Origin: Escherichia phage vB_EcoM_112
Sequence record: NC_024125.2
DNA length: 64,000 bases
Strand: one strand, 5' to 3'
Each line of letters opens with the position of its first letter. Position 1 is the first letter of the stretch. The position numbers and the translations under genes are program-made. Below, piece after piece: positions 10,643 to 20,534 of this stretch. The notes under the pieces are model-generated. The model did no database searches. It was given only the letters and a program-made list of their open reading frames with translations, and had not been told where the DNA came from.

Positions 10643-11469
10643 AATAATATCCAATTTTTCCAAGCTTCATCAGTAGAATTACAGCATTTTAGTATAAGAT
10701 GTCTAGAAACTTTTATGGCATTTGAGCACTTTTTAATTGAATCATATTTAATACCGTCAACTGAAACGGTTTTGCTAGTTGGAGAAATTTTTCCATACAT
10801 TGGATTTTTTGAACCAACTTGAAGTCCTTTTAAAGCTTTTGAAAGCTTTTGTCTAGATTCCAATGACATGGGAGAATTCTTTTTACCTTCAATAATTCGC
10901 TTGCGATGAAGTTCGCGTTCTTCTTCACTCAAAGAATTGTAATATTTTTTAACACCGTTTGATATAGATAATTTATCTTTCTCAGACCGCTCTCCAGCTA
11001 ATTTACTTCTAACATCTTTTCGCTTCATAGCTATGCTTACGGCTTTATTTAAATTTGCTTGATGCTCTGGCGTACGTTTATATTTCTTTAAAGCACGTGA
11101 AATAGCTATTTTAGTTTCTTCTGTTCTCTTTTTACCTTTATTTGCTAAACTATTTTTGCGGCGATGTTCAAGTGTCTGTTCATAGGCAGTTCCACCTTTT
11201 CCACCAGGTTTAATATTATATGTATTTTCTTTTAGACAATACTCTTCGGTTACAAGTTCAGCTTCTTTATCATACATTTGTTTTTCATTATCAAAAACAT
11301 GTAAAATTTCTTTATTAAAATTTTTTCTACCATATTTTAATAAAGCGGCACGAATCAATGTTCCTGACCCCATATAACCGTCATTTATGTTATCGGTGCT
11401 ATGCGCACCGATATATTCCTTTGAATTAATTATATTTGTTATTTTATAAATTATATAATACCTATGCAT
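10639..11469 (-). CDS. free-standing GIY-YIG homing endonuclease
   Basis: N-terminal YIIYKITNIINSKEYIGAHS GIY-YIG motif followed by a basic DNA-binding tail; sits between nrdD and nrdG. Confidence 0.8.
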   Translation of the reverse strand: MHRYYIIYKITNIINSKEYIGAHSTDNINDGYMGSGTLIRAALLKYGRKNFNKEILHVFDNEKQMYDKEAELVTEEYCLKENTYNIKPGGKGGTAYEQTLEHRRKNSLANKGKKRTEETKIAISRALKKYKRTPEHQANLNKAVSIAMKRKDVRSKLAGERSEKDKLSISNGVKKYYNSLSEEERELHRKRIIEGKKNSPMSLESRQKLSKALKGLQVGSKNPMYGKISPTSKTVSVDGIKYDSIKKCSNAIKVSRHLILKCCNSTDEAWKNWILL

Positions 11470-13279
11470 GTTTTACTCGTTTTACCATTTCTTTCATTTT
11501 ACCTAAATTCCATGGAACAACGCTAGGAGTTCCAAGATATCCGCATGTTCTTCTTATGGTATTCATCTTTTTAGGATCAGTTTCTCCACAAATAGAACAA
11601 ACAAATCCGTTTTCAGTAGGAGTCATTTCATGGGTACTTCCGCATGTAAAACATTTATCTACTGGCATATTAACACCAAAATAATCTAAATGTTGTGCAG
11701 CATAATCCCATACAGCCTCAAGACCTTTTAAGTTATTTTTCATATCAGGAAGTTCAACATAAGAAATGTGACCACCTGTTGCAATGAAATGATACGGGGC
11801 TTCGCGAGAAATCTTTTCAAACGGAGTAATATTTTCTTCTACTGAAACATGGAAACTGTTAGTATACCAGCCTTTATCAGTAACATCCTTTACACTTCCA
11901 TATTTTTCGGTATCAAGTTTACAGAAGCGATAACACAAGTTTTCAGCAGGAGTAGAATACAAACTAAAAGCAAATCCGGTTCTTTCAGTCCATTGTTTAA
12001 GATGAGTATTCATTTTAGTTAAAATTTCTTGTCCAATATCACGACCGACAAGAATATTCAATTCGTGAATACCAATGTATCCTAGAGACACTGAACTTCT
12101 ACCGTTTTTAAATAACTCAATTATGTCGTCATCAGGTTTAAGACGAACCCCGAATGCACCTTCTTGGTAAAGAATAGGAGCAACAGTTGCTTTAACTCCT
12201 TTTAAGGAACTAATTCTACACATCAAAGCTTCAAAACACAAATCCATTCGCTCATTGAACAATTCGATAAATTTCTGTTCATTGAACTGTGTTCCAATAT
12301 AAGAATCTAATGCGATACGAGGAAGATTCAGTGTTACAACACCAAGATTATTACGTCCATCAAGAATTTCATTACCAGTCGAATCTTTCCATACGCTCAA
12401 GAAACTACGGCAACCCATCGGAGAAACAGGAACAGATGAACCAGTGATAGCTTTATTGTTCTTAGCTGAAATAATATCAGGATACATCCTTTTGCTTGCG
12501 CACTCTAGAGCAAGCTGTTTAATATCATAGTTCGGGTCGTCTTTATAAAGATTAACACCTTCTTCAACGAACATAACAAGCTTAGGGAAAATAGGAGTTA
12601 TCCCATCACGACCAAGACCTTTAATACGATTTTTCAGAATTGCTTTCTGAATCATTCGTTCAGTCCAGTCAGTTCCCGTACCAAATGTAATTGTTACAAA
12701 AGGCGTTTGTCCGTTTGAACTAAAGAGAGTATTTACTTCATATTCATAAGCTTGGAATGCATCGTATACGTCTTTTTCTGTTTTAGACTGGGCATAATTC
12801 AACGCATCAGCGATTTGCCATTTTTCTGCATCCTCAATATGTTTTGCATAGGTGCGTTTAACATAAGGAGAAAGTACTTTATCTACATTCGCAAAAGTCG
12901 TTCCGCCGTATTGGTGAGAAGCAACCTGTGCAGTAATTTGTGCCATAATTGCAGTAGCAACGCCAATTGATTTAGGAGTTTCAATCTGTGCATTACCTAG
13001 CTTAAATCCGTTTTCAAGCATTCCTTTTAAATCTACTAAACAACAATTAGTAAATGGAAGAGCAGGGGAATAATCAATATCGTGGAAATGGATAATTCCG
13101 CTTTCATGCGCTTTCATAATAAAAGACGGGACCATATTTTTGGCAATGTGTTTAGACACAATACCAGCCATAAGGTCCCGTTGAGTTGGAAAAACACGAG
13201 AATCTTTATTAGCATTCTCGTTTAAAAGGTCTTTATTAGTTTTATGAATCAATCCTTCAATTTCTTTTTCAATTGTCAT
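11462..13279 (-). CDS. nrdD: anaerobic ribonucleoside-triphosphate reductase, uninterrupted
   Basis: 605 aa continuous; C-terminal glycyl-radical motif RRTCGYLG and Zn-ribbon cysteines. Confidence 0.95.
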   Translation of the reverse strand: MTIEKEIEGLIHKTNKDLLNENANKDSRVFPTQRDLMAGIVSKHIAKNMVPSFIMKAHESGIIHFHDIDYSPALPFTNCCLVDLKGMLENGFKLGNAQIETPKSIGVATAIMAQITAQVASHQYGGTTFANVDKVLSPYVKRTYAKHIEDAEKWQIADALNYAQSKTEKDVYDAFQAYEYEVNTLFSSNGQTPFVTITFGTGTDWTERMIQKAILKNRIKGLGRDGITPIFPKLVMFVEEGVNLYKDDPNYDIKQLALECASKRMYPDIISAKNNKAITGSSVPVSPMGCRSFLSVWKDSTGNEILDGRNNLGVVTLNLPRIALDSYIGTQFNEQKFIELFNERMDLCFEALMCRISSLKGVKATVAPILYQEGAFGVRLKPDDDIIELFKNGRSSVSLGYIGIHELNILVGRDIGQEILTKMNTHLKQWTERTGFAFSLYSTPAENLCYRFCKLDTEKYGSVKDVTDKGWYTNSFHVSVEENITPFEKISREAPYHFIATGGHISYVELPDMKNNLKGLEAVWDYAAQHLDYFGVNMPVDKCFTCGSTHEMTPTENGFVCSICGETDPKKMNTIRRTCGYLGTPSVVPWNLGKMKEMVKRVKHA

Positions 13280-15048: not shown

Positions 15049-15291
15049 TTATTCCTTAATTCCTAGTACTTGTTTAAAAGTCTCGTCGTAATCAAGACTT
15101 TGGCCCGTTTGTTCTTTATGTTTGTATATAATATCACTTACTTCTGATAGCATATTTTTATATGAACGAGTTAAAGCTGATTTAAGCACGCTGTATCTAT
15201 CAGGAAATTTACCATGTTCATTATAATAAGCTATTGCTAATTCACGGACTGCCTTTTCAGCAGTCTCCATATATTCTTTACGCTTGGTCAT
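15049..15291 (-). CDS. hypothetical small protein
   Basis: Trimmed to internal ATG (MTKRKEYM); upstream part of the track ORF overlaps the next gene. Confidence 0.4.
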
Positions 15292-15592
15292 TTTCTTCTC
15301 GGTCAAATCGGTGTTTACAATGGCGACATTTATAACGAAGATTACTAGTCTGCCAATGGACCAATTGCACCTGTTCAGTTCCACATTCAGGGCAATTAGG
15401 AACGTTTTTAGAAGCCCTTTCACGACGTTCAACCATGACCATTACAGAATCCCAATTAATAGGAGGGCTATAATCATCACAACCATGAATCTTTCCACGC
15501 ATTTCCAAATCGTCTTCTTCACCAGCCATAATAATTTTAATTAGACTAGAATTACTTGAAGCTGCAATGTCTTCTAATAGACGCTTTTTCAT
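15278..15592 (-). CDS. zinc-ribbon protein
   Basis: 104 aa with CPECG...CRHCKH paired Cys motifs. Confidence 0.5.
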
Positions 15593-16518
15593 TTCAATAC
15601 CTCAATAGCATTACGTAAACCATTTGCTTTTGCATTAAGAGCTTTTAACAATTTGGTGTGTTCTGCAATTTGGGCTTCAACTTCAATCAAACGAGCATTG
15701 AGATATTCGCGTTCTTCACTCAGATTATCAACCTTTTCTACTTTAGGCTCTTTTACAACTGTCTTATATGTATTAGGGTTCTTCAGTTTAATTAGAATGC
15801 GTGAACTGTATAACATTGAACCATTATTTTCGGTTTCGTCATACATTTCTACTACATCCATAATTTTTAACATCATGCGGAGTTTATAAGACAACGAACG
15901 AATAGTTTTGTTGTGCTTATTAATTTCTTTAGCTGTCATGGTGCCGAGATTACGTGAGTAATAATAAGGAACCTGGATATTAATTAATACTGATGAACCA
16001 CCTGGCTTGTGTGTTACTTCATCAGCAATAACCCAGTCCTTAACATGAACTGTATTTGTACGGTCATCACCCGCGGTAAACAGTTTGCGAGCATGCTTAA
16101 AAAGCATATTCACTTGGTCATTGAATTGACAAGCAAATTTATCAGCAAATTTAGTTTCAGGAATGGTAGATAACCAATCAGCCAAATGAGTCTTTTTAAC
16201 ATCGTTAACAATAGTAAATTCAACCAAATCGGTTATAGATGTCTCAGATTTAATAAAGCTCGGCTTCATAAAGTTTTTAATGTTATCGTGAGCTACAGTA
16301 GAAGATAACATACGAGAACGTTTAAACCATTCAAGCAAATTACCTAACGAATGAGAATAAGCGTTTTGAGTATCTTTACAGATATGATTTTCCTGGCCAA
16401 CATATTGAAGGAAATCACGAAGAATATTATTGATTACTGCTCTGTGTCCGATCTGATAATTACGGTGTTTAGTAATAAGACTGTCAAAATAATCAATATA
16501 ATGTTTACGAGTTTTCAT
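15589..16518 (-). CDS. hypothetical protein with C-terminal coiled coil (four-member family, member 1)
   Basis: 309 aa; globular N-terminal part plus heptad-rich tail ...LIEVEAQIAEHTKLLKALNAKANGL. Confidence 0.55.
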   Translation of the reverse strand: MKTRKHYIDYFDSLITKHRNYQIGHRAVINNILRDFLQYVGQENHICKDTQNAYSHSLGNLLEWFKRSRMLSSTVAHDNIKNFMKPSFIKSETSITDLVEFTIVNDVKKTHLADWLSTIPETKFADKFACQFNDQVNMLFKHARKLFTAGDDRTNTVHVKDWVIADEVTHKPGGSSVLINIQVPYYYSRNLGTMTAKEINKHNKTIRSLSYKLRMMLKIMDVVEMYDETENNGSMLYSSRILIKLKNPNTYKTVVKEPKVEKVDNLSEEREYLNARLIEVEAQIAEHTKLLKALNAKANGLRNAIEVLK

Positions 16519-16572
16519 GTTCTTCTCACTTGGTTAATGATTTATACTCCGAGCCATCCTTGGCTTTAAATT

Positions 16573-17604
16573 TTACTTAATTAACTGTAAAGCTTGTTCT
16601 AAACGATCAAGACGATTAACAGATTCTTCCCAAATCCTTTTAGCCTGCTCATATTCTTTCTGCGCTTTATTAGAAATTTCTAGAACTTCTTTATAAGCTT
16701 TTTCTAGTGCAATAACTTCTGGACGAATTTCTACCGGTTCAGGTGAATCATCAAGATTATCCATTAGTTCCTCAAGGGTAGTTTCTTCTTTAGGAGTATT
16801 CACAATTTCATCACATTTTTGCTGGTAAATTTCTTTATCAGTCGGTGAGTACGCACACTTTACTTCACGAAGACTAATTACAATTTTATATCCTTCCCAT
16901 CCGCATATATTCTTAAAAGGATATGTATGAATACTTTTTACAGTTTCCATACAGCCCAAAGCCGTCTCTAATTGATGAGTTATAGTGCTAGCAATTGAGA
17001 AAAATTTATTAATGTTCTTTTGATTAGCTGCTGGTGTAAAAAATCCATAATTCACAAAAATAGCTACTTTATTTTTATCAAGCTCATATTCTTTTACGAT
17101 AATCATATCAGAAGCCAAAGGATGAATTTGACGATAATCGCCATAACATAATTTAGAAGCTGATTTTAGAATTTGTCCTTTGAAAAGTCTGAAATTACTA
17201 ATCCAACGACGAGTAAAAATATTCTCAGGGTCTTCTTTGATATTAAGATGATAAGAATTAACATCACCGAACCAATTATATCCTACTACATCTTTAGTTC
17301 GTTTAATTTCTTTCCCAAAATTACCAAGAATATCCCTATTAACCAAATATGAAAGAAGACGAGACCCTTTAAAGGTTTTCTTAATGGCATCTTTATCTGT
17401 ACGACTAGAAATTTCACGAACTTCATGAATAAATTTGCCGGAAGAAACAATACTTGCATCAATATTATTGAGCCATTGATTGATAATAGAAAGAACGATA
17501 TTTTGACCAAACATCGGTATAGCTTTATCATCAATAACGCTGTTGAACGATTTAATATATTCGTTGCGAGTCATATTAATCTCCTCAGTAGAAAGTAAGA
17601 ACAT
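16573..17604 (-). CDS. hypothetical protein with C-terminal coiled coil (family member 2)
   Basis: 343 aa; shares the FRLFKGQILKSASKL-type block with the next gene. Confidence 0.55.
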   Translation of the reverse strand: MFLLSTEEINMTRNEYIKSFNSVIDDKAIPMFGQNIVLSIINQWLNNIDASIVSSGKFIHEVREISSRTDKDAIKKTFKGSRLLSYLVNRDILGNFGKEIKRTKDVVGYNWFGDVNSYHLNIKEDPENIFTRRWISNFRLFKGQILKSASKLCYGDYRQIHPLASDMIIVKEYELDKNKVAIFVNYGFFTPAANQKNINKFFSIASTITHQLETALGCMETVKSIHTYPFKNICGWEGYKIVISLREVKCAYSPTDKEIYQQKCDEIVNTPKEETTLEELMDNLDDSPEPVEIRPEVIALEKAYKEVLEISNKAQKEYEQAKRIWEESVNRLDRLEQALQLIK

Positions 17605-17631
17605 TATACCACATCCTTGTGGCGAAGTAAA

Positions 17632-18639
17632 CTAGTTTAGTGCATTTAGTGCGTTGTTCAGTTTAGAACGTTGCTTCGTGAGATTTTTGACTTTTTCTAG
17701 CATCTTTTCAGCTTCTAACACTTCATTGGTCGCTTTAACGAGTTCATCATCTACTGCCTTGATAGACTTCTCAATCGCATCCGCGTGCCATTTTTCAACA
17801 GGTTTAAGACTCGGATTTTCAATAGGAAGAAAATTCGCTTTATTAAATTTCCATGCATCTTTATTACCTGAGCTATACATCCAAAATTTAGGATCGTTTG
17901 ATGAGCAATTAGATAAATTTAAGTTATCTTGCACTTCCTGCTTTTTCTCTTGCGTGACTTCGTCTTTTCTCAAAAAATCATATTTAAATGAAACGATCAT
18001 ATCAAGTTCATATGTTGTTGTATGTTCCCAATTTCGCTCAAAACGAGGTAAAATCTTAGACTGAACAGCGGCAACAACATCCATATACTTAAATGCTTCT
18101 GTCAACTGTGATTTAAGGCATTCACAAATTGAAAGAGAATTTTTTGTATTAGGTTTAAAGCTAATTCGTGCAGTTCTATTATTTTCTTTTAACGGTCTTA
18201 CTTCCATCTGAAGAGTATAACCATCAAATTTCAGATTCTTTAAGTTAATATCAGAACCTTTTAATCGACTAGCAGTAGACAAAATTTGCTTTAATTGTTT
18301 ACGAAATAGAGCAATAAATCTCCATTCAATACGATAATGATTTGGATTAAAAAATCCTGTTGATAAATCAACCTTACTCTGACCAACGCCTTGAACAAAT
18401 AGAGGATTTTTATAATCAATAGTTTTACAGAAATCGGTGAGCTGCTCACGAGCAGTCATTTGTGTAATATATCCCGCTTTACTAAAATGACGTAACCATT
18501 CACTGCTATTCATATACTTAAAGTGAATATCACGATTAACTTTATCAGGGTCTAAATTATTTTGGCACAAAAATGTCATAACATTACGGGTATAGCTGGC
18601 ATTACGAACCATATCTTCAATTTGAGAACGAGTTTTCAT
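17632..18639 (-). CDS. hypothetical protein with C-terminal coiled coil (family member 3)
   Basis: 335 aa; IALFRKQLKQILSTASRLKGSD block parallel to member 2. Confidence 0.55.
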   Translation of the reverse strand: MKTRSQIEDMVRNASYTRNVMTFLCQNNLDPDKVNRDIHFKYMNSSEWLRHFSKAGYITQMTAREQLTDFCKTIDYKNPLFVQGVGQSKVDLSTGFFNPNHYRIEWRFIALFRKQLKQILSTASRLKGSDINLKNLKFDGYTLQMEVRPLKENNRTARISFKPNTKNSLSICECLKSQLTEAFKYMDVVAAVQSKILPRFERNWEHTTTYELDMIVSFKYDFLRKDEVTQEKKQEVQDNLNLSNCSSNDPKFWMYSSGNKDAWKFNKANFLPIENPSLKPVEKWHADAIEKSIKAVDDELVKATNEVLEAEKMLEKVKNLTKQRSKLNNALNALN

Positions 18640-18647
18640 GGTGTTCC

Positions 18648-19550
18648 TTAAGATTTAAGTAAATCAACAATTTTAATTAATTTTTCACGCTCAGATTTAG
18701 CTTTACTACTCAATCCAGATAGTCTGAAAATTTCATCGTCATACTGTTGAATAGAAATATTCAGCTCTTCAATTTGCTTATTAAAATAATCAATTTGCTC
18801 AGAATGTTTTTCATTACTGCGAACTGGTACAGGTTTTGTAGGCAATTTAGTTAAACTGGATTCATCCGGGCGATAAATTAAAATACAACTTGAACCAATC
18901 GGGCATTTAGCACCAGACACATATTCTAATGTTCCGGCTTCTTTTAAAACTTCAAAAGCTAAACAGAGATGATGCCCCATATTAACATAATCTGTAGAGC
19001 GAGCTCTGACGTAATAATCATCGCCGCGAATACTAAATTTAAAGCATTTAAGGTCTTCTGTATTATTGGTCTTAAAAATCATTTGTTTATCTAGACCTTT
19101 AGCTAATCTAGCGCCTAATGCTAATAATCGTCGTTGATTTTCCCACAAATCCGCAATCATTTGATCGAATGACAATTTCGGCATTAGTCGGCCATAAAGG
19201 TCATATCCTTTATTATAATTACGAAGGATTTCACTCGCGTTAATACGAGACAATGCTCCAATTTTATTAAGGGCTTTCATGATGCGATTAGATAAACCCA
19301 TTCCAGACCCGTTTGTTCGTTGTAAATGTTTATCTAATCCAAACCCAATATCAACTTTAAATTTATCTAAAATTTCAGCATGAACATCTCTGTCAATAAC
19401 ATTCAAATCCAAAGTTGGGTTAAATCTATGAAAAAATTTATCTGGCTCTCCACGACGAAGTACAGTCCATTCATTTAATTTTTTATTAACTAAAGATTTA
19501 ATTACTGTATTGACATTATTAATTACTACTGACATATTTTTCTCACTCAA
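18648..19550 (-). CDS. hypothetical protein with C-terminal coiled coil (family member 4)
   Basis: 300 aa; RRLLALGARLAKGLD block and coiled-coil tail. Confidence 0.55.
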   Translation of the reverse strand: MSEKNMSVVINNVNTVIKSLVNKKLNEWTVLRRGEPDKFFHRFNPTLDLNVIDRDVHAEILDKFKVDIGFGLDKHLQRTNGSGMGLSNRIMKALNKIGALSRINASEILRNYNKGYDLYGRLMPKLSFDQMIADLWENQRRLLALGARLAKGLDKQMIFKTNNTEDLKCFKFSIRGDDYYVRARSTDYVNMGHHLCLAFEVLKEAGTLEYVSGAKCPIGSSCILIYRPDESSLTKLPTKPVPVRSNEKHSEQIDYFNKQIEELNISIQQYDDEIFRLSGLSSKAKSEREKLIKIVDLLKS

Positions 19551-20006: not shown

Positions 20007-20534
20007 TTATGCGAGTACCGTCTTTAACCGTTCTTCAAATTTCCGAAGAGTGTTCTGGCGTTCAGCTCTTTGCTTTTTGTAAGTTTCAATACGCTCTGAA
20101 ATGAGATTGTATCGTTCATTTACTGATTCTTTCATAAAATCAGGAATTTCACGAGAAGCTTTAATCTCGTCAAATTTATCAATAACAGCTTGCTCTTCAG
20201 CAATTAAGTTATCATACATCAAAATATCTTTCTTGATGAACTCAATATCTTCTTGAGTTACACGAGATAATTTAGATGCTTTATCCTTTTTGTACTGTTC
20301 GTTAGTATCACGAGACCAGTGTAATGTACGATTTTTATTCGTATTTTTGTAAATTTCTACAATACCAATCTCATCGATAATAACGATCCAATTCCAACGA
20401 GATTTGTAAATTTGTCCTCCATCAACCGTGATTTCACCTCCAATTGAGATGTCATTAAAGAACTTGCTTTGAGCTTCAGATTTAAATTTACCATCATTGT
20501 AGTTTACCAAGTTGAAAATATCTTTAGCATTCAT
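20007..20534 (-). CDS. hypothetical protein
   Basis: Start set at MNAKDIF after an RBS; the track's N-terminal extension is a translated promoter repeat. Confidence 0.5.
   Translation of the reverse strand: MNAKDIFNLVNYNDGKFKSEAQSKFFNDISIGGEITVDGGQIYKSRWNWIVIIDEIGIVEIYKNTNKNRTLHWSRDTNEQYKKDKASKLSRVTQEDIEFIKKDILMYDNLIAEEQAVIDKFDEIKASREIPDFMKESVNERYNLISERIETYKKQRAERQNTLRKFEERLKTVLA

What the first reader, a model, noticed from the sequence alone, without database searches (positions are those of the whole stretch)
15589..19550. Four consecutive paralogous ~300-aa proteins, each with a C-terminal coiled coil
Four head-to-tail genes (309, 343, 335, 300 aa) share an architecture of a divergent globular N-terminal region followed by a heptad-rich C-terminal tail. 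Members 2 and 3 share a recognisable internal block (FRLFKGQILKSASKL / IALFRKQLKQILSTASRLKGSD) and member 4 a weaker version. A tandem array of diversified paralogues in an early region is the pattern seen for host-takeover or anti-defence families with varying target specificity. I cannot assign a fold from sequence alone.
Basis: seen in the sequence. Interest (0 to 1): 0.65.

Follow-up and report, generated by a model that had tools for sequence, protein, structure and literature searches.

The report
Four related T4 early anti-defence-type genes
These four neighbouring phage genes are the counterparts of T4 nrdC.3 to nrdC.6 and are ancient copies of one gene; one copy (nrdC.5) is already known to disarm the bacterial Dsr1 defence, which makes the other three good candidates for similar roles.

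Summary
On the minus strand of a T4-like (Tequatrovirus) window lie the orthologues of T4 nrdC.3, nrdC.4, nrdC.5 and nrdC.6.

- **Paralogy:** profile-profile comparison links all four.
  - nrdC.3 to nrdC.4: 98% probability.
  - That pair to nrdC.5: 87.5%, E 3.6e-6.
  - Those three to nrdC.6: 93%, E 3e-7.
  - The links survive removal of the C-terminal tail and exceed block-shuffle nulls.
- **Tails:** each protein ends in a helix of about 50 residues with significant heptad periodicity.
- **Structure:** AlphaFold2 gave a confident nrdC.4 model (pLDDT 83.5). It shows an N-terminal helical region, an alpha/beta core, a flexible linker and the terminal helix. No solved structure matches closely.
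- **Distribution:** Foldseek finds relatives only among uncharacterised ~300-370 aa proteins of T4-like phages of other genera. The relatives I located in genomes (three genera) sit in the nrdC-adjacent region, in one to four copies.
- **Function:** T4 nrdC.5, 92% identical to member 3, has been shown experimentally to overcome the Dsr1 sirtuin defence (Srikant et al. 2022). No mechanism is known.

The anti-defence reading is proven for one member and inferred for the other three. I propose non-enzymatic, oligomeric inhibitors of host immune sensors. Interest is moderate, because the genes and one function were already known.

The parts
15589..16518 (-). Member 1, orthologue of T4 nrdC.3 (309 aa)
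   Evidence: ORF. It is 61% identical to T4 nrdC.3 and 95-98% identical to other Tequatrovirus alleles. It hits phrog_1435 at E 1.6e-116. hhalign against the nrdC.4 family gives 98% probability.
16573..17574 (-). Member 2, orthologue of T4 nrdC.4 (333 aa from ATG 17574; the open frame runs up to 17604)
   Evidence: ORF. It is 92.7% identical to T4 nrdC.4. It hits phrog_1435 at E 3.9e-168. Its homologues carry Pfam PF26897 Phage_T4_Y04OP. The start is placed by the RBS and promoter. The AlphaFold2 model has pLDDT 83.5.
17603..17632 (-). T4-type early promoter GTTTACT-N17-(TG)TATAAT, between member 3 and member 2
   Evidence: Consensus scan gives 10 of 12 matches with a TG extension. The sequence was read directly. 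This stretch accounts for the 68-nt match to Klebsiella phage genomes.
17632..18639 (-). Member 3, orthologue of T4 nrdC.5 (335 aa), the published anti-Dsr1 gene
   Evidence: Pfam DUF7235 at E 1.9e-122 over the full length. It is 91.8% identical to T4 nrdC.5. The function of the T4 protein comes from PMC9391042.
18648..19535 (-). Member 4, orthologue of T4 nrdC.6 (295 aa from ATG 19535; a TTG at 19550 would give 300 aa)
   Evidence: ORF. It hits phrog_2257 at E 4e-152. Its homologues carry PF26899 Phage_T4_Y05B. The start is read. hhalign against the merged profile of the other three families gives 93.2%, E 3e-7.
16264..16329 (-). Shared block 1 in member 1 (WFKRSRMLSSTVAHDNIKNFMK). The equivalents are 17311-17376 (member 2), 18424-18489 (member 3) and 19209-19274 (member 4).
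   Evidence: The blocks are aligned to each other in the hhalign outputs and in the MAFFT alignment.
17134..17193 (-). Shared block 2 in member 2 (FRLFKGQILKSASKLCYGDY; helix 129-150 of the model). The equivalents are 16063-16113 (member 1), 18250-18315 (member 3) and 19089-19151 (member 4).
Evidence: hhalign aligns the copies to each other.
15592..15729 (-). C-terminal heptad helix of member 1. The equivalents are 16576-16722 (member 2), 17635-17790 (member 3) and 18651-18797 (member 4).
   Evidence: Heptad periodicity against within-segment shuffles gives p 0.0005-0.034. AlphaFold2 predicts helices 295-342 in member 2 and 283-334 in member 3. Within each family the tip of this helix is among the most conserved stretches.

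Best explanation
The four genes are anciently diverged tandem paralogues of one family of T4-like phage proteins (T4 nrdC.3, nrdC.4, nrdC.5, nrdC.6).

**Architecture.** Each protein has a variable N-terminal helical region, an alpha/beta core (long helix, two strands, long helix, two strands, preceded by a small sheet), a flexible linker, and a C-terminal heptad helix of about 50 residues that runs to the last residue.

**Expression and status.** They are transcribed with the early genes. They are accessory genes: kept under purifying selection, but variable in copy number and sometimes lost.

**Proposed function.** I propose that they are non-enzymatic proteins that oligomerise through the terminal helix. 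They would use the globular part to bind and silence host immune proteins. Member 3 (nrdC.5) would block the Dsr1 sirtuin NADase, most simply by direct binding that stops its TPR sensor from being switched on by the major capsid protein. The other three would be tuned to other host targets.

**Shown here:** homology, architecture, selection regime and distribution.
**Shown by others, for the T4 orthologue:** nrdC.5 overcomes Dsr1.
**Inferred:** direct binding, oligomerisation, and an anti-defence role for members 1, 2 and 4.
For: - **Homology of all four:**
- **Common architecture:** the confident AlphaFold2 model of member 2 (pLDDT 83.5, pTM 0.67) and the independent, low-confidence model of member 3 built from its own family only show the same order of core elements at the offsets predicted by hhalign.
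- **No sign of catalysis:**
  - The four-family alignment has no invariant column. Only L93, A215 and P290 are at least 90% conserved.
  - No enzyme family reaches its curated cut-off in Pfam or NCBIfam.
  - The PDB sequence search returns nothing but designed helical repeats and coiled-coil noise.
- **Heptad tails:** significant in all four, and their tips are among the most conserved stretches within each family.
- **Anti-defence function of the T4 orthologue of member 3:** PMC9391042. Dsr1 senses the major capsid protein through a TPR sensor (PMC12803255).
- **Accessory character:**
  - One to four copies across the T4-like phages I examined.
  - nrdC.4 is split in phage G8, and T2 is represented in BFVD only by a 155-aa fragment.
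  - A natural nrdC.5/nrdC.3 fusion that lacks nrdC.4 occurs on four contigs.
- **Real genes under constraint:** dN/dS 0.06-0.38.
- **Early promoter** directly upstream of member 2.
Against: - Only one of the four members has any functional data, and that is a plating phenotype with no biochemistry. An indirect effect on Dsr1 is not excluded.
- Oligomerisation is inferred from heptads alone.
- Member 4 is as conserved as core genes (dN/dS 0.06-0.13). That fits a housekeeping role as well as it fits an arms-race gene.
- The confident model used a merged four-family alignment. It is therefore not an independent test of homology.
- Member 3 modelled with its own family only was poor (pLDDT 51).
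Confidence: 0.55

Rival explanations
1. The four paralogues are subunits of one hetero-oligomeric complex held together by their similar C-terminal helices. Dsr1 evasion would be one output of that complex, rather than each paralogue having its own target.
For: - All four end in a similar tip: AIEVLK, ALQLIK, ALNALN, IVDLLKS. A P-x-P-V-like element precedes the helix.
- The helix tip is among the most conserved parts of each family.
- The genes are adjacent and share one orientation, with few promoter-like sites between them.
Against: - Copy number ranges from one to four among related phages.
- nrdC.4 is split in phage G8, T2 is represented in BFVD only by a 155-aa fragment, and nrdC.4 is deleted in a natural variant.
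- nrdC.3 is absent from Gaprivervirus and Dhakavirus.
- nrdC.5 alone on a plasmid rescued the T4 mutant. The extent of that mutant's deletion is not stated in the text I read.
Confidence: 0.15
2. The family has a general host-takeover or nucleic-acid-related role, for example binding DNA or RNA or a host housekeeping factor. The effect of nrdC.5 on Dsr1 would be indirect, for instance through timing of late protein synthesis or NAD metabolism.
For: - Residues 30-86 of member 1 weakly resemble the SAM-like N-terminal DNA-binding domain of tyrosine recombinases in two libraries: Pfam PF02899 at E 0.069 and NCBIfam PRK00283 at E 0.0021.
- Member 4 is as conserved as core genes.
- The family occupies the nrdC-adjacent slot in the genera where I located it.
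Against: - Both weak hits are far below the curated cut-offs.
- The genes are dispensable and variably present.
- The only phenotype known is defence-specific.
Confidence: 0.15
3. The alpha/beta core is a derived copy of a virion protein fold (tail-terminator-like). The proteins would act as early-expressed decoys that occupy immune sensors built to recognise late structural proteins.
For: - Dsr1 and DSR2 both sense virion proteins.
Against: - Foldseek against the PDB finds nothing at E <= 1e-3. Lambda gpU ranks only 27th (E 0.2), behind TRAPP Bet3 and Rpb11.
- This kind of two-layer alpha/beta sandwich is common.
- There is no sequence similarity to any tail protein in the window.
- Dsr1 senses the capsid protein, not a tail terminator.
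Confidence: 0.1
4. The four genes are unrelated. They resemble each other only through similar length and a convergent coiled-coil tail.
For: - BLASTP links only members 1 and 2.
- Iterated HMM searches at E < 1e-3 keep three separate groups.
- Pfam keeps three separate families.
Against: - Profile-profile comparisons are significant with the tail removed and exceed shuffle controls.
- The alignments are collinear and mutually consistent.
- Members 1 to 3 share the N-terminal M(K)TR..YI..F start.
- The merged alignment raised model confidence to pLDDT 83.5.
Confidence: 0.04

Closest known systems
T4 NrdC.5 (Pfam DUF7235, PF23882), reported to counteract the Dsr1 defence-associated sirtuin (Srikant et al. 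2022, eLife, PMC9391042)
   Same: Member 3 is its orthologue: 91.8% identical, full-length Pfam match at E 1.9e-122, and the same position in the genome.
   Different: - The published work gives a plating phenotype only, with no fold, partner or mechanism.
- It does not relate nrdC.5 to its three neighbours.
- Whether this window's allele inhibits the same Dsr1 variant is untested.
Pfam PF26897 (Phage_T4_Y04OP, covering nrdC.3 and nrdC.4) and PF26899 (Phage_T4_Y05B, covering nrdC.6); PHROGs 1435, 2351 and 2257
   Same: Members 1 and 2, and member 4, fall in these families. Pfam and PHROGs already join nrdC.3 with nrdC.4.
   Different: The databases keep three separate families of unknown function. 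Here all three are linked by profile comparison and a common predicted architecture.
DSAD1, the SPbeta-group phage protein that inhibits DSR2 by binding its C-terminal sensor region (PMC10973363, PMC10981675, PMC11087589)
   Same: Both are small phage proteins that neutralise a SIR2 NADase defence which senses a virion protein. DSAD1 is the model for the direct sensor-blocking mechanism proposed here.
   Different: - The target differs (Dsr1, not DSR2), as do the phage group and the architecture (no terminal coiled coil is described for DSAD1).
- This is a functional analogy only.
Phage tail terminator proteins (lambda gpU, T5 p142, Mu and others)
   Different: - Foldseek does not support the match.
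- There is no sequence similarity.
- The nrdC proteins carry an extra N-terminal helical region and a terminal coiled coil.
- They are early, non-virion genes.
Other T4 accessory counter-defence genes that are lost in compensatory deletions (ipIII, tifA, dmd, adfA; PMC9391042)
   Same: They are non-essential genes whose loss narrows host range. They lie in dispensable regions and have variable alleles among T4-like phages.
   Different: They are unrelated in sequence and size. None of them is a four-gene paralogue array with a common coiled-coil tail.

Membership tests
DUF7235 / T4 NrdC.5 family (PF23882) | Full-length match to the Pfam model above its gathering score | tested here: met
   Member 3 scores 408.9 bits (cut-off 30), E 1.9e-122, covering residues 1-335 of 335. 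Members 1, 2 and 4 do not hit the model directly.
DUF7235 / T4 NrdC.5 family (PF23882) | Ability to restore phage growth on Dsr1-carrying cells | not testable with these tools
   This has been shown only for the T4 protein (PMC9391042). Member 3 is 91.8% identical to it.
Phage_T4_Y04OP (PF26897) / phrog_1435 | Sequence match of members 1 and 2 to one common family model | tested here: met
   Both hit phrog_1435, at E 1.6e-116 and 3.9e-168. All homologues of member 2 carry PF26897. hhalign between the two families gives 98%.
Phage_T4_Y05B (PF26899) / phrog_2257 | Sequence match of member 4 | tested here: met
   It hits phrog_2257 at E 4.2e-152. All 105 homologues carry PF26899.
Single superfamily uniting nrdC.3, nrdC.4, nrdC.5 and nrdC.6 (proposed here) | Significant, collinear profile-profile similarity outside the coiled-coil tail | tested here: met
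   With tails removed: P 5.4e-5 for {3/4} vs 5, and P 6.2e-5 for {3/4/5} vs 6. Neither was reached by any of 40 block shuffles.
Single superfamily uniting nrdC.3, nrdC.4, nrdC.5 and nrdC.6 (proposed here) | Same three-dimensional fold shown by independent models of each member | tested here: inconclusive
   - Only member 2 has a confident model, and it used the merged alignment.
- The own-family model of member 3 is poor, but it shows the same order of core secondary-structure elements.
- No structure prediction jobs remained for members 1 and 4.
Coiled-coil proteins | Heptad periodicity of hydrophobic residues in a long uninterrupted helix | tested here: met
   Periodicity against shuffles gives p 0.0005-0.034 for all four tails. 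AlphaFold2 predicts helices of about 50 residues. Oligomeric state was not determined.
Thioredoxin / NrdC (the label many GenBank records give these genes) | Thioredoxin-fold domain with a CxxC active site | tested here: not met
   None of the four hits a thioredoxin or glutaredoxin model in Pfam or NCBIfam. The predicted fold is different. The label comes from the gene names nrdC.x.
Phage tail terminator proteins | Significant structural match of the core domain by two methods, or sequence similarity | tested here: inconclusive
   [not shown]
DSAD1-like inhibitors of defence sirtuins | Structural or sequence similarity to DSAD1 | tested here: not met
   No DSAD1 chain appears among the listed PDB matches of the member 2 model or in the profile searches of PDB sequences.

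The most novel reading that the evidence does not exclude
The nrdC.3-6 proteins, together with their one-to-four-copy relatives next to nrdC across T4-like phages, form an expandable toolkit of early-expressed oligomeric decoys.

Their alpha/beta core would imitate the surface of a virion protein (a tail-terminator-like fold). They would plug the repeat-type sensors of immune proteins that detect late structural proteins, such as Dsr1 and Avs7-type sensors. Each paralogue would be matched to a different sensor.
Probability: 0.1. Interest if true: 0.8.

Novelty: new member of a known kind. Interest (0 to 1): 0.5.

Why it matters
T4 is the best-studied virulent phage, yet about half of its early genes have no known function.

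- **A route to function.** Linking nrdC.3, nrdC.4 and nrdC.6 to the one neighbour with a known counter-defence phenotype turns three 'hypothetical proteins' into specific candidates. They can be screened against defence-system panels.
- **A wider family.** The link defines a family with relatives in T4-like phages of several other genera; those I located sit at the nrdC-adjacent locus.
- **A handle on Dsr1.** Dsr1 is still poorly understood. It was recently reported to sense capsid protein through a TPR sensor. A defined inhibitor with a modelled architecture would help work out how Dsr1 is activated and blocked.
- **Annotation.** Many database records label these genes 'thioredoxin', and the evidence here shows that label is wrong.

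Tried and rejected
1. **BLASTP and iterated HMM searches.** On their own they did not merge the three sequence groups. Only profile-profile comparison with enlarged families did.
2. **AlphaFold2 of member 3 with its own family alignment.** It gave a poor model (pLDDT 51), too weak for fold searches.
3. **Exhaustive HMM search with the nrdC.3/4 profile.** Across 1.84 billion representatives it found only 9 proteins. No distant annotated relatives turned up.
4. **Foldseek against the PDB.** No hit at E <= 1e-3. The afdb50 library was not available.
5. **Profile searches of PDB sequences.** Only designed helical repeats and coiled-coil noise.
6. **The T6 record's label.** It calls the nrdC.5 orthologue 'tail sheath stabilizer and completion protein'. 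This looked like support for the tail-terminator lead. It is a shifted annotation transfer: the neighbouring tiny ORFs are labelled as baseplate proteins.
7. **nrdC.8 as a fifth, shorter paralogue.** It is a 175 aa protein downstream that also ends in a heptad helix. I found no similarity beyond the tail.
8. **Serratia phage PS2_088.** This structural relative has no detectable profile similarity.
9. **Repeats and RNA.** There is no DNA-level repeat between the paralogues and no Rfam family in the region.
10. **Literature.** Searches for a named Dsr1 inhibitor or for nrdC.3/4/6 functions found nothing beyond Srikant et al..

Full report
**What is there**

The window is a Tequatrovirus genome segment. 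It is 97% identical in DNA to phage vB_EcoM_G4498 and about 88% identical to T4 over this region.

Four consecutive minus-strand ORFs occupy 15589-19550. By position and sequence they are the orthologues of T4 genes:

| Member | T4 gene | Protein identity to T4 |
|---|---|---|
| 1 | nrdC.3 | 61% |
| 2 | nrdC.4 | 92.7% |
| 3 | nrdC.5 | 91.8% |
| 4 | nrdC.6 | about 95% |

They lie between nrdC/nrdC.1/nrdC.2 and nrdC.7/nrdC.8.

Two starts should be corrected:
- A T4-type early promoter, GTTTACT-N17-TATAAT with a TG extension, and a GAGGAG ribosome-binding site place the start of member 2 at 17574 (333 aa, as annotated in T4).
- Member 4 most likely starts at ATG 19535 (295 aa).

No Rfam family and no significant DNA repeat lie in the region.

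**Are they paralogues?**

BLASTP links only members 1 and 2. PHROGs and Pfam also join only those two, as phrog_1435 and PF26897 Phage_T4_Y04OP. They keep nrdC.5 (DUF7235) and nrdC.6 (PF26899) apart.

I enlarged each family with diverged versions from Mosigvirus-, Dhakavirus- and Gaprivervirus-type genomes. I then compared profiles with hhalign:

| Comparison | Full length | Tail removed | Block-shuffle null |
|---|---|---|---|
| nrdC.3 vs nrdC.4 | 98%, E 2e-13 | n/a | n/a |
| {3/4} vs 5 | 87.5%, E 3.6e-6, 253 columns | P 5.4e-5, score 38.9 | 19.3 +/- 3.2, 0 of 40 |
| 5 vs 6 | n/a | P 0.0032, score 27.3 | 13.3 +/- 1.8, 0 of 40 |
| {3/4/5 + a Klebsiella phage relative} vs 6 | 93.2%, E 3e-7 | P 6.2e-5, score 37.9 | 15.0 +/- 2.8, 0 of 40 |

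Further points support true homology:
- The alignments are collinear and mutually consistent.
Member 1 has its own copy (VNMLFKHARKLFTAGDD).
- A second block upstream is shared by all four: [FL]xK.[GR]x[LI][ST]...Ax[ED].[LI]..[FY].K.
- Members 1 to 3 also begin alike, with M(K)TR..YI..F.
- As a control, the three-family profile was run against all 71 window ORFs of at least 100 aa. After its own members, it ranks member 4 first.

**The tails**

The last 46-52 residues of each protein show heptad periodicity above within-segment shuffles: p = 0.0045, 0.0015, 0.034 and 0.0005.

Other shared features of the tails:
- They are preceded by a proline-containing element (PEPV, KPVEKW, KPVPV).
- They end at the C-terminus with a similar tip: AIEVLK, ALQLIK, ALNALN, IVDLLKS.
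- Within each family the tip is among the most conserved parts.

**Structure**

AlphaFold2 on member 3 with its own shallow family gave a poor model (pLDDT 51). Member 2 with the merged four-family alignment gave pLDDT 83.5 and pTM 0.67. The member 2 model contains:
- six N-terminal helices (residues 13-94);
- three short strands;
- a long helix (129-150, which is block 2);
- two strands;
- a long helix (195-218);
- two strands;
- two short helices;
- a low-confidence linker;
- a terminal helix (295-342).

The independent member 3 model shows the same helix, two strands, helix, two strands, linker, long helix order. The offsets match those hhalign predicts.

Fold searches gave the following:
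- **Foldseek against BFVD:** 17 hits at E <= 1e-3. Two are fragments of nrdC.4 itself. The rest are uncharacterised proteins of about 230-370 aa, and every hit that carries an organism name comes from a T4-like phage of another genus. These include Acinetobacter Acj61 (two consecutive accessions), Acj9 and fHyAci03, Enterobacter IME523, Pectobacterium PM2, Erwinia Cronus, Serratia PS2 and CBH8, and Klebsiella P545. Identity is 11-19% over full-length alignments.
- **Foldseek against the PDB:** nothing at E <= 1e-3. Lambda gpU sits at E 0.2, behind TRAPP Bet3 and Rpb11.

I therefore treat the core as a two-layer alpha/beta sandwich without a secure known relative.

**Distribution and evolution**

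The family sits in the same slot near nrdC in different T4-like phages:

| Phage group | Copies and content |
|---|---|
| Tequatrovirus | four |
| Mosigvirus-type | three: nrdC.3-like, a 23%-identical nrdC.5-like, a 33%-identical nrdC.6-like |
| Gaprivervirus, Dhakavirus | three, lacking nrdC.3 |
| Klebsiella Jiaodavirus | one detected; a 324 aa protein linked to the nrdC.3/4 profile at 92.5% |
| Acinetobacter phage Melin | a 335 aa protein directly upstream of nrdC, with a strong heptad tail |
| Serratia phage PS2 | one 370 aa protein |

An exhaustive HMM search with the nrdC.3/4 profile over 1.84 billion representatives found only nine proteins. In sequence terms the family is very narrow.

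dN/dS against six Tequatrovirus genomes:
- member 1: 0.08-0.38
- member 2: 0.20-0.25
- member 3: 0.14-0.32
- member 4: 0.06-0.13
- most flanking core genes: 0-0.16

These are constrained genes. Members 2 and 3 evolve somewhat faster than their neighbours.

Member 1 exists as three allele classes, at about 95-100%, 75-78% and 60% identity. Its dS is about 1.0 against 0.1-0.2 for most flanking genes. That indicates old alleles exchanged by recombination together with nrdC.2. The divergence is concentrated in the central core.

The genes are dispensable:
- nrdC.4 is split in phage G8, and T2 appears in BFVD only as a 155-aa fragment.
- A natural variant seen on four contigs carries an nrdC.5/nrdC.3 fusion and lacks nrdC.4.

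**Function**

Srikant et al. (eLife 2022, PMC9391042) found that a T4 deletion mutant could not plate on ECOR17, or on MG1655 carrying ECOR17 dsr1. [quoted passage not shown]

Dsr1 is a SIR2 NADase. A 2026 preprint reports that its TPR sensor, shared with Avs7, is triggered by phage major capsid protein (PMC12803255).

I found no later work on the mechanism of nrdC.5, and nothing on nrdC.3, nrdC.4 or nrdC.6.

The four-family alignment has no invariant column. The only positions at least 90% conserved are a Leu, an Ala and a Pro. No enzyme family reaches its curated cut-off. A binding role is therefore the simplest reading.

My best explanation is that the proteins are oligomeric, non-enzymatic inhibitors of host immune proteins. 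nrdC.5 would block Dsr1 directly, by analogy with DSAD1 blocking the sensor region of DSR2. The paralogues would aim at other targets. Only the nrdC.5 phenotype is demonstrated; the rest is inference.

**Rivals**

- A single hetero-oligomeric complex. The similar helix tips favour it. Variable copy number and rescue by nrdC.5 alone count against it.
- A general host-takeover or nucleic-acid role with an indirect effect on Dsr1. The only support is two sub-threshold hits of member 1 residues 30-86 to the N-terminal domain of tyrosine recombinases.
- No homology at all, which the profile comparisons disfavour.

**Comparison with what is known, and novelty**

The genes have been annotated in T4 for decades, and one has a published counter-defence phenotype. 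The following appear not to be described in the library I could search:
- the linkage of all four into one family;
- the predicted architecture;
- the extension to a locus-anchored family in other T4-like genera.

The frequent GenBank label 'thioredoxin' for these genes is not supported. It derives from the gene names.

I rate this as new members of a known kind, that is, candidate relatives of a known counter-defence gene. Interest is moderate.

Noticed in passing
window 17571-17639: A stretch of about 68 nt is 79-81% identical to Klebsiella T4-like phage genomes, in some of which the matching stretch is annotated as 'cef modifier of suppressor tRNAs'. It coincides with the early promoter, the RBS and the start of member 2. 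It is probably conserved promoter architecture rather than coding similarity.
   Followed up: partly
window 15278-16518 (nrdC.2 and nrdC.3): These two adjacent genes are far more diverged from most of the other Tequatrovirus genomes compared than their neighbours. Protein identity is 58-79% and about 61%, and dS is about 0.5-1.3, against 0.1-0.2 for most flanking genes. That suggests an old allelic cassette swapped by recombination. Within nrdC.3 the ends are conserved and the centre is variable.
   Followed up: partly
L017 3570-4900 (ENA metagenome scaffold, 167 kb) and L018: A natural phage variant has a deletion that joins the middle of nrdC.5 to the middle of nrdC.3. The junction is at a short FN..VN microhomology. 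The deletion removes nrdC.4 and leaves a 115 aa fragment plus a 299 aa chimeric ORF (P0057).
   Followed up: partly
P0123 (Shigella phage Sf25 nrdC.6 homologue, 378 aa): This protein carries an internal tandem duplication of about 80 residues. One copy aligns to member 4 residues 6-263, and the next segment aligns again to residues 181-300.
   Followed up: no
L003 5916-6950 (phage vB_EcoM_G8); BFVD entries A0A482N302 and A0A2Z5WKJ2 (T2): nrdC.4 is split into two ORFs in G8. In BFVD, G8 and T2 are represented by fragments of 155-158 aa. That suggests pseudogenisation in some T-even phages.
   Followed up: no
window 20007-20153 (C-terminus of the nrdC.8 orthologue): The 175 aa nrdC.8 protein, two genes upstream of the array in transcription order, also ends in a heptad-patterned helix (p 0.03). 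It shows no profile similarity to the four-gene family.
   Followed up: yes
window 16519-16572: The gap between members 2 and 1 holds a short hairpin (AGCCA-AGGA-TGGCT on the coding strand) followed by TATAAATC. That sequence is one base off the T4 late-promoter consensus TATAAATA, which I recall from memory. On the coding strand it does not look like a terminator.
   Followed up: no
window 11462-13279: nrdD is one uninterrupted 605 aa ORF here. T4 nrdD is split by the group I intron that carries I-TevII.
   Followed up: no
NC_054907.1 (T6), locus L014: The T6 RefSeq record carries shifted product names in this region. Tiny ORFs are called baseplate proteins, and the nrdC.5 orthologue is called 'tail sheath stabilizer and completion protein'. 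Many other records call all nrdC.x genes 'thioredoxin'.
   Followed up: yes
window 16261-16431 (member 1 residues 30-86): Two libraries give weak, sub-threshold hits to the N-terminal SAM-like domain of tyrosine recombinases: Pfam PF02899 at E 0.069 and NCBIfam PRK00283 at E 0.0021. This may hint at the nature of the N-terminal helical region.
   Followed up: no
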